The notes: a model not told the origin generated them from the letters alone. Counted from the stretch's first letter, positions 34,918 to 37,993 are shown. The stretch: 64,000 nucleotides of DNA from a virus (IMGVR_UViG_3300010213_000001:180701-244700); one strand, 5' to 3'. A program made the numbers and translations.

Positions 34918-34994
34918 CTCTATAGTTGTTCACTATGTTGTATATAGATTTATACGCTTCTATATTAAAAATCTTTGACATAATAAATGAAAGT

Positions 34995-35042
34995 TAAATA
35001 TTAAAAATAATAAATCAAGAGACATTTTCCTTCCGATGTGTC
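34995..35042 (-). terminator. putative rho-independent terminator closing the Ro60-like / structured-RNA unit
   Basis: Stem gagacat / atgtgtc (35019..35042, one mismatch), followed on the minus strand by a U-rich tract (plus-strand A-run 34995..35015). Confidence 0.4.
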
Positions 35043-35277
35043 TACCATTCCACCATTGACTACTAAGTAGTCAAGAAGGATTCGAACCTTCACGTCTTAT
35101 GACCTCGGTTTGTAATAGGATTATTGCTGTTAGTCTCTTTTTAGTATTCATCTTAATATAGCATGATACAAAGTTTTACTGGTGTGGGTGCTACCATAAA
35201 CTATATCAAGATGAATGGGTGAACATTGTTCATTTTTATTAGATTAAATTGTTGCTGTACCACACCAAATTTTATCT
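35043..35277 (-). ncRNA. candidate structured ncRNA (Y-RNA-like / tRNA-like) immediately 3' of Ro60-like gene
   Basis: 230-nt ORF-free tail. Contains a perfect T-arm-like GAAGG-UUCGAAU-CCUUC (minus reading of 35070..35090), an adjacent 8-bp hairpin UUGACUAC/GUAGUCAA, and a long-range 7-bp pairing GGUGUGG…CCACACC enclosing about 70 nt. There is no anticodon arm, so it is not a tRNA. Confidence 0.3.
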
Positions 35278-35598
35278 TTACACTTCCAAGTAATTAAATA
35301 TTTCTTGATTCATTACATCTAGGAACATCTCTTCACTTGTCTGTGGTGTACCTTTTTGTCCTTCCACTCCAGTAAGGAAAGCTAGAATTGCTGGATCTAA
35401 ACCAGATATGTGTATCAAATTGGAAGTATCTGCAAATCCTTCAAATTTTCTAGGTGTTGCTCTGCCGTAATAACTATTTGGCATATCCCACAACACAACT
35501 TTGAAGTTATCTACATACTCTTTACTAAATCCATATCTAGCAAGCTTTTTCTTTAGCGTTACAAAATTAGTGTCATTTCCAGTTCTGTTAAATTCTCC
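35278..35598 (-). CDS. Ro60-like (TROVE + vWA) protein, 3' exon
   Basis: Exon begins GEFNRTGNDTNFVTLKKKLARYGF...VVLWDMPNSYYGRATPRKFEGFADTSNLIHISGLDPAILAFL. Joined to exon 1 it gives IVCFSD|GEFN, matching the Ro60 vWA 'IVFTDNETF' segment. The following GLD region matches Ro60 'CGFDTGALDVI'. Confidence 0.55.
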   Translation of the reverse strand, partial: GEFNRTGNDTNFVTLKKKLARYGFSKEYVDNFKVVLWDMPNSYYGRATPRKFEGFADTSNLIHISGLDPAILAFLTGVEGQKGTPQTSEEMFLDVMNQEIFNYLEV

Positions 35599-36595
35599 CA
35601 TTTATGTTAGCTTACTATTTCTAGTAAGATCGGACTATACCTTTATCCTCTCATATTCAAGGATAGCTGATTGTAGTCTCTGAACCTTTACCTCTATATA
35701 ATTATCAAAAACAATTTTCTTTCTCTTAAAGAAACAATCCTCATTTACATCTTTATACATATAAGAATAAAGAGGTAGACTTCTAGTTTTATTGTATAAT
35801 TTTATATTCCAACAATTAGATGCTGTTCTTGTATCTTTATACAATAATTTTGCAGAGCTTTCATATAAATTTACTTTATCTAGTAAAGCTTTTAGAAAGT
35901 CATGAGAACCAGAGAATGTTACATTTAAACTCACATCTTCAGTTCTATTCTTTGCTAAGAAGACGCTACCATCCCCATCAAAGAAACCTCTTACAAAGTG
36001 ATGGAATAAATTATCTGGTATATTAGGAATGTTTTCATTAAATGTTTTGTTTGGTAGTACTCCAAGATTAGCTAAATCATCACATATTTTTTGTGAAGTT
36101 ATATCTAGTCTATATGAAGTCTTTTGAGAATATCTAGATTTATTTTTACTGTTATCAATAGTATAAATCTTCTTATTTGTTTCAAGATATTTAGCAAATA
36201 CTTCTAACGGCTCTTTATCAATGAGACCAAGCTTTAAAACTTGCTGTCTATTTGGTAATTTCTTGCTTATATTACCATCTGCAACTGTAAGCCCTAGAAA
36301 ATATGCTTTATCTTGAGTGTCTATAATCTCAAAATAGGATTCATTTAATGTGTATAGTCTCTTTTTCATAATATTTTTATGAAAATAAACTACTAAATTA
36401 GTAAAATTGTTTTAATATAAAGGTACTTGGCTGCGGATTTTCTCCATGTATTATTCTTTTTTACTATACCTTAATGATTAGTTAAGCCACAATCTATATT
36501 ACTATGATTGTTTAGTAGAATAATCTTTTGAAGAGTTCCCCGTCAATTTACAGCATTTTACACGTACATTACTATACGAGGTGACAGTTGAATTT
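35599..36595 (-). mobile_element. group I intron (td-like, IA2) with LAGLIDADG homing endonuclease, ~1 kb
   Basis: Exon ends …GUGAU. Internal guide GUCAC pairs with it, with a U•G at the splice site. P AAAUUGACGGGGAACUC (36532..36549), Q AAAAUCCGCAGCC (36429..36441), HEG ORF, then R GGUUCAGAGACUACA (35672..35686, overlapping the HEG 3' end), P8 hairpin, S AAGGUAUAGUCCG (35631..35641), P9 hairpin CUUACUA-GAAA-UAGUAAG, terminal G. Confidence 0.8.
35635..36369 (-). CDS. LAGLIDADG homing endonuclease (double-motif, intron-encoded)
   Basis: Motif 1 KAYFLGLTVADGNIS, motif 2 HFVRGFFDGDGSVF. Confidence 0.8.
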   Translation of the reverse strand: MKKRLYTLNESYFEIIDTQDKAYFLGLTVADGNISKKLPNRQQVLKLGLIDKEPLEVFAKYLETNKKIYTIDNSKNKSRYSQKTSYRLDITSQKICDDLANLGVLPNKTFNENIPNIPDNLFHHFVRGFFDGDGSVFLAKNRTEDVSLNVTFSGSHDFLKALLDKVNLYESSAKLLYKDTRTASNCWNIKLYNKTRSLPLYSYMYKDVNEDCFFKRKKIVFDNYIEVKVQRLQSAILEYERIKV

Positions 36596-37993
36596 ATCAC
36601 TAAAACATACTATACCATTAGGCATATCATTTTCTGAGACTCCTTTTTCTAGCATACGTCCAAAGTGATCTGCTACAGATATAAAATCAGTCGCAGAAAA
36701 CTTACTAGAGTTCTCATTACATAACTGATCAACTGGATTATCACCTTTCCATTGTTTCATAACAGTACCATCATTAAACTCAAGATAACATCCACTAAAT
36801 GGACCTTCTAAAAGATAACTTAGGTATAGTGTCATAACTTTACCAACAAGATATGAAGACACAGTGGTTCCAATTACAGGACTTGTCATAGATCCTGAAG
36901 TATCCAATACACCTATGAATCTATTGCCACCTCCAATCATACCATCTTTAGCAGTCTCTATAATACCATAAAACTGCTTATTCATAGTCTCGATCTGATA
37001 AGACTTCAAATGTCGTTTAGACATAATAGTACTATTACCAAGCTGTTTGAATATCTCATATGGGTATCCTGTAAACTTTAAGATTGGCTTAGCTGCCATC
37101 CATGCTTCATATCTTTCCTCTAGCCCTTGATTTTGTAAGAATGCAGTTTTCTTTGTGAGAATATCAAGAGCCTTACCATGAATGCTAGAGAAATCTATCA
37201 ATTCAAACTTACGTTGACTTATGAGTTTCTGCCATTCGTGAGCAGTTCCACTCTCTTTCAACTTACGATACTTTTTATATGTACTTCCTTCATCTTTATT
37301 CCCAAAGATCAAAGATGCTATCCACTTACCTATAATATTTCTAGATTTACTTCTAGCTGTCTTACAATTCTTATTAGTTCTAATTGTTGGCAAATACTTT
37401 TTGAGTAATTGTACTGTGTTCGGATTAGATAATCCACTTAGTATTAAACTAGCAAATTTATCCCAATCAAGAACTCTTGAGTCCCATCCATTTTCAAGAT
37501 CATTTTCTAGTATTTGAAATATATCTTTCCAGCATCCAACAGAAACAAATACAGTAACATTTTTCCAGAATGTCTCTGGATGGTTTCTAGCCAACCATAC
37601 CATCCTATAGATTCCTTCATGTTTTAGTCCTTGACCACGTTGCGTACCAATAGTTTTGTTACCATTGAACAATTGTACTTGTCTAGTTATCATTCTAGTA
37701 TATAGTATGATTCGTAGAGTAAGTAACTTGTCTTGGCTCCATAGCAAGTCCATAGTTTTAGCTATGTCATTATAAGTTCTTTGCTCTTTGTACGAACTCA
37801 TCTTGCCAAAATCATCAACAAAGTCAGACCCTGTAGTTGAGAGCTTTATTGCTCCATTACCTGATAATACTTCACTGGACACTTCCATTGAAGCTCTAAT
37901 GAAAGGATTCTCATATGTTTGTAATGCAGACTTCAATTCCGCAGAAGCGAAAGAGTCAGATGTTTGATCAATAGGTTTTTTGCTGTTTAACAT
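36596..37993 (-). CDS. Ro60-like (TROVE + vWA) protein, 5' exon
   Basis: About 340-aa helical N-terminal region, then vWA with MIDAS NRFIGVLDTSGSMTS (Ro60 'RFLLAVDVSASM'). An HPF-like segment FTGYPYEIFKQLG is present. The track ORF reads into the intron (…DKFNCHLV*). Confidence 0.55.

What the first reader, a model, noticed from the sequence alone, without database searches (positions are those of the whole stretch)
34990..37993. Ro60-like (TROVE+vWA) gene interrupted by a LAGLIDADG-HEG group I intron, followed by a tRNA-like structured RNA (candidate Y RNA)
Exon 1 carries a long helical domain plus the vWA MIDAS (VLDTSGSM). Conceptual splicing joins IVCFSD to GEFN, reconstructing the Ro60 'IVFTDNETF' segment, and the downstream GLD region matches Ro60 'GFD'. 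Directly 3' of the gene, before a terminator, is a 230-nt ORF-free RNA candidate with a perfect T-arm, an 8-bp hairpin and a long-range closing stem, but no anticodon arm. This is the architecture reported for bacterial YrlA Y RNAs, which mimic tRNA and pair with Ro60 (Rsr). A phage carrying Ro60 plus Y RNA, with the Ro60 gene itself invaded by an intron and homing endonuclease, would be unusual.
Basis: partly seen in the sequence, partly recalled or inferred. Interest (0 to 1): 0.85.

Follow-up and report, generated by a model that had tools for sequence, protein, structure and literature searches.

The report
Phage Ro60-like gene with tRNA-mimic RNAs
A large phage carries an intron-split gene for a ring-shaped, Ro60-like RNA-binding protein, surrounded by about eleven small structured RNAs that share one conserved tag, one of which mimics a tRNA; this looks like an undescribed relative of the Ro60/Y-RNA particle and recurs in hundreds of phages, including Felix-O1-like phages that can be grown in the lab.

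Summary
The gene (minus strand) is split by a 997-nt group I intron carrying a LAGLIDADG endonuclease. Splicing joins CFSD|GEFN, matching the family consensus C-SDGCFN directly after the invariant MIDAS aspartate.

The downstream RNA is two units, not one. Unit 35014..35142 has the YrlA layout: variable arm, T arm, closed acceptor stem, U8, D arm, no anticodon loop. Rfam YrlA does not match it.

It belongs to a modular family that I could not find in Rfam or in the searchable literature: AAG-[P1]-ACAGCAA ... insert ... [P1']-CUG.
- The window holds 11 units, all within 35014..38840 on the gene strand. One overlaps the gene's start codon.
- 67 of 80 homologous phage loci have units, always on the gene strand.
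- Covariation is strong (93-94% paired versus about 40% in slid controls).
- Units also occur in a Felix-O1-like phage.

Protein-RNA binding and function are inferred, not shown.

The parts
36596..37993 (-). Exon 1 of the Ro60-like (DUF2828/DUF7788) gene, residues 1-466. Includes MIDAS residues D364-x-S366-x-S368 and T435. It ends with the MIDAS Asp466.
   Evidence: ORF. PF11443 at 43 bits against a cut-off of 29. Invariant columns in A1. Junction coordinates.
35599..36595 (-). Group I intron, 997 nt. The 5' splice site follows U36596, which pairs with G of the guide sequence GUCAC (36581..36585). The intron ends in G35599. Core elements read from the sequence: P 36536..36549, Q 36429..36439, R 35672..35686, S 35632..35643.
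   Evidence: RF00028 partial hits: 35611..35794 at 28.8 bits, E=1.1e-4, and 36380..36545 at 16.6 bits. Sequence inspection. Uninterrupted homologues.
35635..36369 (-). LAGLIDADG homing-endonuclease ORF (244 aa) inside the intron. Its 3' end overlaps core elements R and S.
   Evidence: PF14528 E=1.3e-10 and PF00961 E=6e-4. PHROG 4645 E=2.7e-47.
35278..35598 (-). Exon 2, residues 467-572 plus the stop codon. This is the rest of the vWA domain.
37955..37998 (-). RNA unit overlapping the gene's translation start: AAG-AUGUU-AAACAGCAA-...-AACAUC-UGA. The start codon lies in the 5' strand of P1.
   Evidence: R1 at 26.2 bits, E=0.005, with filters off. Sequence. The same arrangement occurs at 17 of 70 distinct gene starts.
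38386..38840 (-). Tandem array of eight short units (46-72 nt each), each AAG-[P1]-(A)ACAGCAA-...-[P1']-CUG. It lies between ORF 38844..39227 and ORF 38024..38401.
   Evidence: Seven units reported by R1: 38737-38796, 38687-38736, 38633-38686, 38574-38632, 38514-38567, 38442-38513, 38386-38441. The eighth, 38795..38840, was read from the sequence. AACAGCAA positions.
35177..35270 (-). Unit with P1 GGUGUGG/CCACACC followed by UACAGCAA. Its insert has no tRNA-like domain.
   Evidence: R1 at 20.3 bits, E=0.08. MFE fold keeps P1.
35014..35142 (-). tRNA-mimic unit. P1 35133..35139 pairs with 35017..35023. AACAGCAA 35124..35131. Short 'anticodon' stem CCGA 35105..35108 pairs with UCGG 35033..35036. 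Long variable arm 35092..35104. T arm 35075..35091. Closed acceptor stem-loop 35056..35074. U8-G9 35054..35055. D arm 35038..35053.
   Evidence: R1 at 76.1 bits, E=4e-13. Hand parse. Tertiary-contact bases. No tRNA call from ARAGORN or Rfam.

Best explanation
This is a phage ribonucleoprotein module of the Ro60/Y-RNA type, built from a divergent protein family and a different RNA tag.

Shown from sequence and comparison:
1. The gene is interrupted, directly after the codon of the invariant MIDAS aspartate, by a group I intron that carries its own LAGLIDADG homing endonuclease. Splicing restores a 572-aa protein.
2. That protein (DUF2828 + DUF7788, PHROG 850) is predicted to fold like Ro60: an alpha-helical ring closed by a vWA domain with a complete MIDAS.
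3. Eleven small RNA units lie within 1 kb of the gene, all on its strand. They share a module: a 7-9-bp closing stem P1 with conserved flanks AAG...CUG, the single-stranded heptamer ACAGCAA directly 3' of the 5' strand, and an A-rich 3' side. The inserts differ. One unit carries an L-shaped tRNA mimic in the YrlA order, without an anticodon loop.

Inferred:
4. The protein binds the P1/ACAGCAA module, as Ro60 binds the conserved stem of Y RNAs. The units are cut out of polycistronic transcripts.
5. The unit that buries the gene's own start codon in P1 acts as a translational operator, giving autoregulation.
6. The tRNA-like insert recruits proteins that recognise tRNA shape (modification or processing enzymes, or an exonuclease such as PNPase, as in Ro60-Y RNA-PNPase complexes). 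The particle would then act in surveillance, protection or hijacking of structured RNA and tRNA during infection.
For: Intron and splice:
-, as listed under the observation check.

Fold:
- AlphaFold model pLDDT 85.7, pTM 0.86.
- Nine best Foldseek hits are all Ro60 over about 580 columns, E 7e-10 to 3e-6.
- MIDAS residues D364, S366, S368, T435 and D466 are invariant in 45 sequences.

RNA structure:
- 21 seed units have perfect 7-9-bp P1 stems with different sequences.
- In 116 distinct units from gene-anchored loci, 92.8% of cells pair, against 36-46% when partners are slid. All 9 P1 pairs show changes on both sides.
- An independent RNA-anchored set of 119 units gives 94.1% against 33-47%.
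- tRNA tertiary signature in 26 parsed units: U8 26/26, A14 26/26, T loop UUCGANY. The Levitt pair covaries: G15:C48 in 19, A15:U48 in 5.

Linkage to the gene:
- In the 64-kb window, the seven best model hits and ten of the best sixteen all lie in 35014..38796 on the gene strand.
- Seven of eight AACAGCAA occurrences lie there, against 2.8 expected in the whole window.
- 67 of 80 loci found through the protein have at least one unit. All 123 hits in those loci are on the gene strand.
- Of 80 loci found through the RNA pattern alone, 29 hold a family member by the A1 profile, all 29 on the RNA's strand. The count rises to 37 with iterated searches.
- Homologues at only 29-33% identity in Saprospiraceae and Myxococcota assemblies have hits directly downstream. 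All 26 hits are on the gene strand.
- Citrobacter phage Michonne (Felix-O1-like) has the gene at the head of its tRNA array, plus one tRNA-mimic unit (73.7 bits) and three short units.
- In this window the units flank the gene, not the tRNA genes, which lie more than 8 kb away.

Operator:
- AAG-AUG...CAUCUG pairing occurs at 17 of 70 distinct gene starts, 14 of them with the CAGCAA motif.
- This explains the conserved N-terminus M-F-x-S-K.

Precedent:
- Ro60 genes lie next to Y RNA genes, often several processed from one precursor. YrlA has the same T / acceptor / D order (PMC4201824).
- A phage Ro60 binds two adjacent Y-like RNAs and host PNPase (PMC12135203).
Against: - No binding, expression or splicing data exist. 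Steps 4 to 6 are inference.
- No TROVE Pfam hit, and no sequence-level match to solved Ro60 proteins even with a profile. Homology rests on a predicted structure.
- Foldseek TM-scores are only 0.24-0.56.
- Rfam YrlA does not match the unit, and the YrlA motif GNCGAA is absent.
- 43 of 80 RNA-anchored loci show no Ro60-like gene in the 1-15 kb retrieved. Some have more than 5 kb of flank on both sides.
- In Michonne the units sit among tRNA genes. They could be elements of tRNA operons that merely travel with the gene.
- Single-sequence folding is only weakly better than shuffles (z=-1.8 for the tRNA-like unit).
- No promoter or terminator stands out.
- Some low-scoring model hits are adjacent ordinary tRNAs.
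Confidence: 0.65

Rival explanations
1. The units are cis-acting elements of phage tRNA or early operons, not partners of the protein. They would be processing, stability or punctuation signals cut by host RNases. The Ro60-like gene simply lives in the same operons.
For: - In Michonne the units alternate with tRNA genes.
- Many loci are tRNA-rich and some hold tmRNA genes.
- The flanks AAG/CUGAU are conserved, as processing sites would be.
- 43 of 80 RNA-anchored stretches show no gene.
Against: - In this window all eleven units flank the gene, while the tRNA genes are more than 8 kb away.
- One unit is built into the gene's own start.
- Units follow even 29-33%-identical homologues.
- The 25-tRNA array of phage T5 has no unit. 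The best hit is 25.8 bits and spans two adjacent tRNAs.
- P1 is too short for RNase III.
- A tRNA mimic with a closed acceptor stem is not an RNase P substrate; the authors of PMC4201824 attribute the uncleaved YrlAs to a stem shorter than seven base pairs.
Confidence: 0.2
2. The 35014..35142 element is a circularly permuted tRNA gene whose transcript is rearranged into a working tRNA, as in Cyanidioschyzon merolae.
For: - The 3' half (variable arm, T arm, acceptor 3' strand) precedes the 5' half (acceptor 5' strand, D arm), with perfect acceptor complementarity.
- In some relatives the acceptor 3' strand is followed by ACCA-like bases and a long linker.
Against: - There is no anticodon loop. 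The 'anticodon stem' is 3-4 bp and opens into the ACAGCAA/A-rich internal loop closed by P1.
- The same P1/ACAGCAA frame carries inserts without any tRNA part.
- The acceptor loop here is only 3 nt.
Confidence: 0.03
3. The protein is a vWA/MIDAS co-chaperone or structural protein, for example a partner of the AAA+ ATPase encoded nearby. It would not be an RNA-binding protein, and the Ro60 resemblance would be convergent or a modelling artefact.
For: - There is no sequence-level link to TROVE.
- The window encodes an AAA ATPase (27080..28294, 29809..30354) and a second vWA protein (12608..14014).
Against: - A distant family member gives a weak hit to Pfam vWA_Ro60 (PF25045, E=0.002).
- Iterated search from DUF2828 members pulls in a TROVE protein.
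- The conserved, same-strand RNA neighbourhood is as expected for Ro60.
Confidence: 0.08
4. The tRNA-like element is a decayed tRNA or a chance juxtaposition of two tRNA fragments with no function.
For: The covariance model gives weak false hits on neighbouring ordinary tRNAs.
Against: - 76 bits over the full model, with P1 and ACAGCAA.
- Compensatory changes in all four helices across more than 200 distinct units.
- Preserved tertiary-contact bases and a covarying Levitt pair.
Confidence: 0.02

Closest known systems
Bacterial Ro60 (Rsr) with YrlA/YrlB Y RNAs (Chen et al. 2014, PMC4201824; Rfam RF02553)
   Same: - Ring plus vWA/MIDAS protein fold.
- RNA genes adjacent to the protein gene.
- Several RNAs per locus share a protein-binding stem but differ elsewhere.
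- A conserved motif sits on the 5' strand next to the terminal stem.
- The tRNA mimic has the order variable arm, T arm, closed acceptor stem, D arm, with U8, A14, G18G19 and a covarying 15:48 pair, and no anticodon loop.
   Different: - By sequence the protein is DUF2828/DUF7788, not TROVE.
- The RNA motif is ACAGCAA, not GNCGAA(N)G.
- RF02553 does not match.
- There are up to eleven units in tandem arrays, most without a tRNA part.
- One unit overlaps the protein's start codon.
- The gene usually heads or sits in a phage tRNA array.
Thermus phage phiLo Ro60 with Yrl1/Yrl2 (PMC12135203, 2025; PDB 9l5y)
   Same: - It shows that phages use such particles and can engage host PNPase.
   Different: - phiLo Ro60 is a TROVE protein.
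- Its RNAs carry the CGAA motif and are simple stem-bulge-stem RNAs.
- No tRNA mimic, array or intron is reported.
Pfam DUF2828 (PF11443) + DUF7788 (PF25043); PHROG 850 'RNA-binding protein'
   Same: The spliced protein is a member. Both Pfam scores are above their cut-offs, and PHROG 850 gives E=1e-33. Felix-O1-like phage homologues are annotated 'RNA-binding protein, DUF2828'.
   Different: I found no cognate RNA or function described for this family. The five papers in the library that mention DUF2828 are unrelated lists.
Phage group I introns with homing endonucleases
   Same: - U.G pair at the 5' splice site and terminal G.
- Core elements P, Q, R and S are present.
- A free-standing endonuclease ORF sits in a peripheral loop.
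- Insertion is at the most conserved codons of the host gene.
- Two more group I introns lie 4.5 kb away in the same window.
   Different: - The host gene is new.
- The endonuclease ORF runs into core elements R and S.
- Rfam scores fall below the gathering cut-off because the ORF splits the core.
Stable tRNA-like RNAs of phage T5 (RNA1, RNA2, RNA3; annotated in NC_005859)
   Same: Small stable RNAs of unknown function with tRNA-like parts, encoded inside a phage tRNA array.
   Different: - They are in normal tRNA order with inserts.
- They have no P1/ACAGCAA frame.
- The model does not match them.
- No DUF2828 gene lies in the 50 kb examined.

Membership tests
Ro60 / TROVE (PF05731) | Sequence match to the TROVE domain profile | tested here: not met
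   No PF05731 hit at E<=1 for exon 1 or for the spliced protein. phmmer and a family-profile hmmsearch against PDB find no Ro60.
Ro60 / TROVE (PF05731) | Alpha-helical ring closed by a C-terminal vWA domain | tested here: met
   [not shown]
Ro60 / TROVE (PF05731) | MIDAS metal site in the vWA domain (DxSxS, T, D) | tested here: met
   D364, S366, S368, T435 and D466 are invariant in 45 sequences.
Ro60 / TROVE (PF05731) | Binds Y RNA on the outer surface and RNA 3' ends in the central hole | not testable with these tools
   Needs biochemistry or a structure of the complex.
YrlA Y RNA (Rfam RF02553) | Match to the family covariance model | tested here: not met
   No RF02553 hit at E<=10 in 3.3 kb or in 311 nt. 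The same model hits units next to a true TROVE gene in L086 at 37, 36 and 27 bits.
YrlA Y RNA (Rfam RF02553) | tRNA-like domain in the order variable arm, T arm, acceptor stem-loop, D arm, with tRNA tertiary bases | tested here: met
   Definition from PMC4201824.
YrlA Y RNA (Rfam RF02553) | Conserved GNCGAA(N0-1)G motif in the Ro60-binding module | tested here: not met
   Absent from 35014..35142. ACAGCAA is the conserved motif instead, at 95-99% per position.
YrlA Y RNA (Rfam RF02553) | Encoded next to a Ro60 orthologue | tested here: inconclusive
   It lies next to a Ro60-fold protein that is not a TROVE orthologue by sequence.
DUF2828 / DUF7788 | Pfam scores above the curated cut-offs | tested here: met
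   PF11443 at 42.3 bits (cut-off 29). PF25043 at 32.9 bits (cut-off 27.1) for the spliced protein.
Group I intron (RF00028) | Match to the covariance model at the gathering score | tested here: inconclusive
   28.8 bits (E=1.1e-4) for the 3' core and 16.6 bits for the 5' part, against a cut-off of 50. The 735-nt ORF splits the core.
Group I intron (RF00028) | U.G pair at the 5' splice site in P1, terminal G, and P/Q/R/S core elements | tested here: met
   Read from the sequence: exon GUGAU pairs with intron GUCAC; G35599; AAAUUGACGGGGAA, AAUCCGCAGCC, GGUUCAGAGACUACA and AAGGUAUAGUCC in order; R and S pair as GACUA/UAGUC.
Group I intron (RF00028) | Removal restores an uninterrupted conserved reading frame | tested here: met
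Permuted tRNA gene | The two halves together supply a complete anticodon stem-loop | tested here: not met
   A 4-bp stem opens into the ACAGCAA/A-rich loop closed by P1. There is no 7-nt anticodon loop.

The most novel reading that the evidence does not exclude
DUF2828/DUF7788 proteins are an unrecognised second branch of the Ro60 superfamily with their own class of Y-like RNAs. A short 'address tag' (P1 stem plus ACAGCAA) is recognised by the protein and displays interchangeable cargo domains, including tRNA mimics. The RNAs are made as tandem arrays, and the same tag on the protein's own mRNA gives feedback control. The system is widespread in phages with tRNA arrays, including Felix-O1-like coliphages and Salmonella phages. 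It would act on tRNA or structured-RNA metabolism during infection.
Probability: 0.5. Interest if true: 0.85.

Novelty: new variant of a known kind. Interest (0 to 1): 0.8.

Why it matters
- Ro60/Y-RNA particles occur from bacteria to humans, and Ro60 is a major lupus and Sjögren autoantigen. What the tRNA-like Y RNA domain does is still unknown.
- If this reading is right, a large family of 'unknown function' proteins (DUF2828; per Pfam's own family description, recalled from my own knowledge and not checked here, also found in eukaryotes) joins the Ro60 world with a different RNA recognition code.
- Phage tRNA arrays would gain a new class of companion RNAs.
- The question would become testable in easily grown phages of E. 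coli, Salmonella and Citrobacter.
- The start-codon unit would be a new example of translational feedback by an RNA-binding protein.
- The intron shows that homing endonucleases target this gene at its metal-binding aspartate.

Tried and rejected
- DNA similarity to known phages finds only short pieces of the endonuclease gene, so the phage has no close cultured relative.
- ARAGORN and the Rfam tRNA model do not see the tRNA-like unit, as expected for a permuted order.
- I considered a permuted group I intron or circular-RNA arrangement because AGAGACUAACA resembles the intron R element. I rejected it: that stretch is P1 plus ACAGCAA, and P1 varies in sequence between units.
- I considered a hammerhead-type ribozyme because of CUGAUAAG between tandem units. 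I rejected it: the essential G8 is replaced by A, no GAAA core follows, and no Rfam ribozyme hit was found.
- MAFFT misaligned the 3' strand of P1 for several seeds. I fixed this by specifying the structure by hand and realigning to the model.
- Single-sequence folding does not recover the cloverleaf-like domain and gives weak z-scores. The evidence is comparative, not thermodynamic.
- My first profile (A1) missed distant family members in RNA-anchored loci. Pfam and jackhmmer recovered some.
- One RNA-anchored locus (L086) turned out to be a canonical TROVE gene with three YrlA-like RNAs, where ACAGCAA is part of a stem. That was a chance pattern match, though useful as a positive control for RF02553.
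- Look-up of the source contig by the exon-1 protein failed.
- Literature searches found nothing for DUF2828, PF11443, 'Ro60-like' or phage tRNA-array RNAs that describes this family. Two key reviews could not be checked: PMC10870794 is not held, and Burroughs & Aravind 2016 did not turn up in the searches, so prior description cannot be excluded.

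
Full report
**Layout.** All features are on the minus strand. The ORF list shows a 473-aa ORF (36572..37993), a 244-aa ORF (35635..36369) and a 107-aa ORF (35278..35601). These are followed by 296 bases (34982..35277) with no ORF of 40 aa or more on either strand.

**The intron.**
- The middle ORF is a LAGLIDADG endonuclease: PF14528 E=1.3e-10 and PF00961, PHROG 4645 E=2.7e-47.
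- The Rfam group I model matches both sides of it below the gathering score: 35611..35794 at 28.8 bits, E=1.1e-4, and 36380..36545 at 16.6 bits. The low scores are expected because the 735-nt ORF splits the core.
- Reading the sequence, the exon ends GUGAU|. This pairs with GUCAC ten bases into the intron, giving the U.G pair of P1.
- The four classical core elements occur in order: AAAUUGACGGGGAA (P), AAUCCGCAGCC (Q), GGUUCAGAGACUACA (R), AAGGUAUAGUCC (S). R and S pair as GACUA/UAGUC. The intron ends in G35599.
- The junction joins ...IVCFSD to GEFN....
- A database search with the spliced 572-aa protein returned 1199 relatives. The best uninterrupted ones are about 570 aa, 50-57% identical, and mostly 95-100% covered.
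- In an alignment of 45 sequences the junction reads C-x-S-D-G-C-F-N, with D466 invariant.
- Splicing lifts the DUF7788 score from 16 to 32.9 bits, and the match spans the junction. I regard the intron and its boundaries as settled, short of RT-PCR.
- The insertion point follows the last MIDAS residue exactly. This is typical of homing endonucleases, which target invariant sequence.

**The protein.**
- There is no TROVE hit. By sequence it is DUF2828 (42-43 bits, cut-off 29) plus DUF7788, and PHROG 850 'RNA-binding protein' (E=1e-33).
- Neither the sequence nor the family profile finds any solved structure.
- An AlphaFold model built on the alignment is confident (pLDDT 85.7, pTM 0.86).
- Foldseek against PDB gives Ro60 as the nine best hits, each over about 580 columns (E 7e-10 to 3e-6, TM 0.24-0.56). 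Only vWA domains follow.
- The MIDAS residues D364, S366, S368, T435 and D466 are invariant.
- 'Ro60-like' is therefore supported at the level of predicted fold, and 'TROVE' is not supported at the level of sequence.

**The RNA next to the gene.**
- After the T arm and the 8-bp hairpin the sequence continues UG-GUG-GAAUGGUAGA-CAC. This is U8, G9 and a class-II-type D arm with A14 and G18G19.
- The hairpin is thus an acceptor stem closed by a loop. The order variable arm, T arm, acceptor, D arm is a circular permutation of tRNA.
- That order is the arrangement Chen et al. described for YrlA (PMC4201824).
- A 4-bp stem (CCGA/UCGG) takes the place of the anticodon stem. It opens into an internal loop closed by a terminal stem, AAGAGAC/GUCUCUU.

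**A family with a shared frame.**
- I fetched 80 phage loci encoding relatives of the protein and scanned them for T arm, hairpin and D arm. Many have such an element 100-400 nt downstream of the gene on the same strand.
- Their flanks show a constant frame: (A/U)AAG, a 7-9-nt strand, (A)ACAGCAA, 20-30 nt, the tRNA-like domain, an A-rich stretch, the complementary strand, then CUG(A/U)U.
- In 21 seed units the terminal stem (P1) is perfectly complementary and differs in sequence each time.
- A covariance model (R1) found 126 matches in 81 sources at E<0.01. These lie in 67 of the 80 loci, every one on the gene's strand.
- About half are short units of 50-75 nt that keep P1, the flanks and ACAGCAA but carry only a small hairpin instead of the tRNA mimic.
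- Pair counts on 116 distinct sequences: 92.8% standard pairs against 36-46% when partners are slid, 672 cells changed on both sides, and all nine P1 pairs compensated. The alignment is fitted to the model, which inflates pairing somewhat. The contrast is nonetheless large, and P1 complementarity was first seen without any model.
- Conservation per position: A-x-A-A-G before P1 and ACAGCAA at 95-99%; an A before the 3' strand at 93%; G after CU at 100%.
- In 26 parsed tRNA-like domains U8 and A14 are invariant. The 15:48 pair is G:C in 19 and A:U in 5, including the window.

**The window itself.**
- With filters off, the seven best R1 hits in the 64 kb, and ten of the best sixteen, all lie between 35014 and 38796 on the gene strand.
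An eighth array unit (38795..38840) is visible by eye.
- AACAGCAA occurs eight times in the window, seven of them here, against 2.8 expected.
- The window's tRNA genes are more than 8 kb away. The units go with the gene, not with tRNAs.

**The start-codon unit.**
- The gene begins AAG-AUG-UUA-AAC-AGC-AAA ... AACAUC-UGA. This is a complete unit, with the start codon in the 5' strand of P1.
- Among 70 distinct gene starts, 17 pair AAGAUG with a downstream CAUCUG, and 14 of these also have the CAGCAA motif.
- This accounts for the conserved N-terminus M-F-x-S-K (M1 and K5 invariant) as an RNA-level constraint.
- I read it as a translational operator. That is inference.

**Reverse test.**
- A pattern for the RNA alone (ACAGCAA, T loop, UAGCUCAG) found at least 120 stretches in IMG/VR.
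- R1 confirms 131 units in the 80 loci kept, often several per locus, with 94.1% pairing.
- A profile of the protein family finds a member in 29 of the 80 stretches, all 29 on the RNA's strand.
- Pfam shows that two 'empty' loci hold distant DUF2828/DUF7788 genes right next to the RNA. Iterated searches raise the count to 37.
- The rest have short or one-sided flanks, although a few have more than 5 kb on both sides. This is the main weakness of the linkage argument.

**Breadth.**
- tblastn finds the family in 323 deposited phage genomes. These include Leptolyngbya phage Lbo-JY46 (39.7% identity) and many Felix-O1-like phages of E. coli, Salmonella and Citrobacter (21-27%), where it is annotated 'RNA-binding protein, DUF2828'.
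- In Citrobacter phage Michonne the gene heads the tRNA array. The unannotated gaps hold one tRNA-mimic unit (73.7 bits) and three short units.
- Lbo-JY46 has three short units directly after the gene.
- Homologues of 29-33% identity in Saprospiraceae and Myxococcota assemblies have hits directly downstream; all 26 hits are on the gene strand.
- As a negative control, the 25-tRNA region of phage T5 gives nothing above 25.8 bits. Those hits span adjacent ordinary tRNAs. T5's annotated tRNA-like stable RNAs are in normal tRNA order.

**Comparison with the known.**
- Rfam 15 has no family for these units.
- Rfam YrlA (RF02553) gives no hit on the window unit even in a 311-nt search at E<=10.
- The same model hits three YrlA-like units upstream of a genuine TROVE + vWA_Ro60 gene in locus L086.
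- The RNA therefore works like YrlA in architecture but is not a member of that family. The protein has the Ro60 fold but is not a TROVE protein by sequence.
- Canonical Ro60 with Y-like RNAs is already known in phages (PMC4201824; PMC7824862; PMC12135203).
- I found no description of DUF2828 proteins with cognate RNAs. Several relevant reviews could not be read.

**Mechanism.**
- Shown: intron anatomy, restoration of the frame, family membership, predicted fold, RNA structure by covariation, and genomic linkage and orientation.
- Inferred by analogy with Ro60/Y RNA: the protein binds P1/ACAGCAA; units are released from polycistronic transcripts; the start-codon unit gives feedback; the tRNA mimic recruits tRNA-shape-recognising factors.
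- The window also encodes a CCA-adding-type nucleotidyltransferase (53943..55271), which fits a tRNA-centred lifestyle.
- The biological role is open. Candidates are tRNA or structured-RNA surveillance, protection from host nucleases, or capture of host PNPase as reported for phiLo Ro60.

**Verdict.** I rate it a new variant of a known kind. My confidence in the overall reading is 0.65.

Noticed in passing
window 30389..31116 (-), with ORF 31085..32014: Two more group I introns reach Rfam's gathering score (92.2 and 50.8 bits). They lie next to a GIY-YIG/NUMOD endonuclease ORF, apparently inside an AAA+ ATPase gene whose pieces lie at 29809..30354 and possibly 27080..28294. The phage is intron-rich.
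   Followed up: partly
window 51881..51990 and 59219..59339 (-): Two tRNA-model hits of 110 and 121 nt have 40-50-nt insertions between the anticodon arm and the T arm. ARAGORN did not call them. They could be long variable arms, introns or pseudogenes.
   Followed up: no
window 46444..46512 (-): ARAGORN calls a 'tRNA-???' with a two-base anticodon. It is a tRNA-like sequence with an abnormal anticodon loop.
   Followed up: no
window 35151..35207 (-): A 17-bp hairpin (CAUCUUGAUAUAG.../...CUAUAUUAAGAUG) dominates the minimum-energy fold of the spacer. It competes with the P1 stem of unit 35177..35270 in pseudoknot-like topology. Its role is unexplained.
   Followed up: no
window 38024..38401 (-): A 125-aa ORF with no Pfam or PHROG hit, rich in E, K and L, sits between the RNA array and the Ro60-like gene. 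The last array unit overlaps its listed GTG start. The likely ATG start is near 38359.
   Followed up: no
window 34333..34917 (-): A weak class-I SAM methyltransferase ORF (several Pfam families, E about 1e-3, all below their cut-offs) lies directly downstream of the RNA units. It may be an RNA methyltransferase.
   Followed up: no
window 53943..55271 (-) and 12608..14014 (-): A PolyA_pol-head nucleotidyltransferase (CCA-adding-enzyme type, E=2.6e-25), and a second protein with a weak C-terminal vWA hit (VWA_2, E=4e-4, below cut-off).
   Followed up: no
L082 (Citrobacter phage Michonne NC_028247) 5352..6185: The unannotated gaps of the tRNA array hold three short units and one tRNA-mimic unit with flanks CAGAAG...CUGGU. 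Weak Rfam hits to 'Dicty_Class_I_RNA' (21-25 bits, below cut-off) fall on two of the short units.
   Followed up: partly
L086 (IMGVR_UViG_3300017917_002918) 4316..4770: Three tandem YrlA-like tRNA mimics lie upstream of a canonical TROVE + vWA_Ro60 gene. It is a clean example of a phage with a classical Ro60 and a Y RNA array.
   Followed up: partly
L036 5859..6218, L057 5821..6223, L070 407..952: tmRNA genes lie within 3 kb of the Ro60-like gene in three phage loci, alongside tRNA arrays.
   Followed up: no
L005, L049, L080 and others: In units with long acceptor 'loops' (12-21 nt), the 3' strand of a 7-bp acceptor stem is followed by ACCA-like or ACNA bases. [quoted passage not shown]
   Followed up: no
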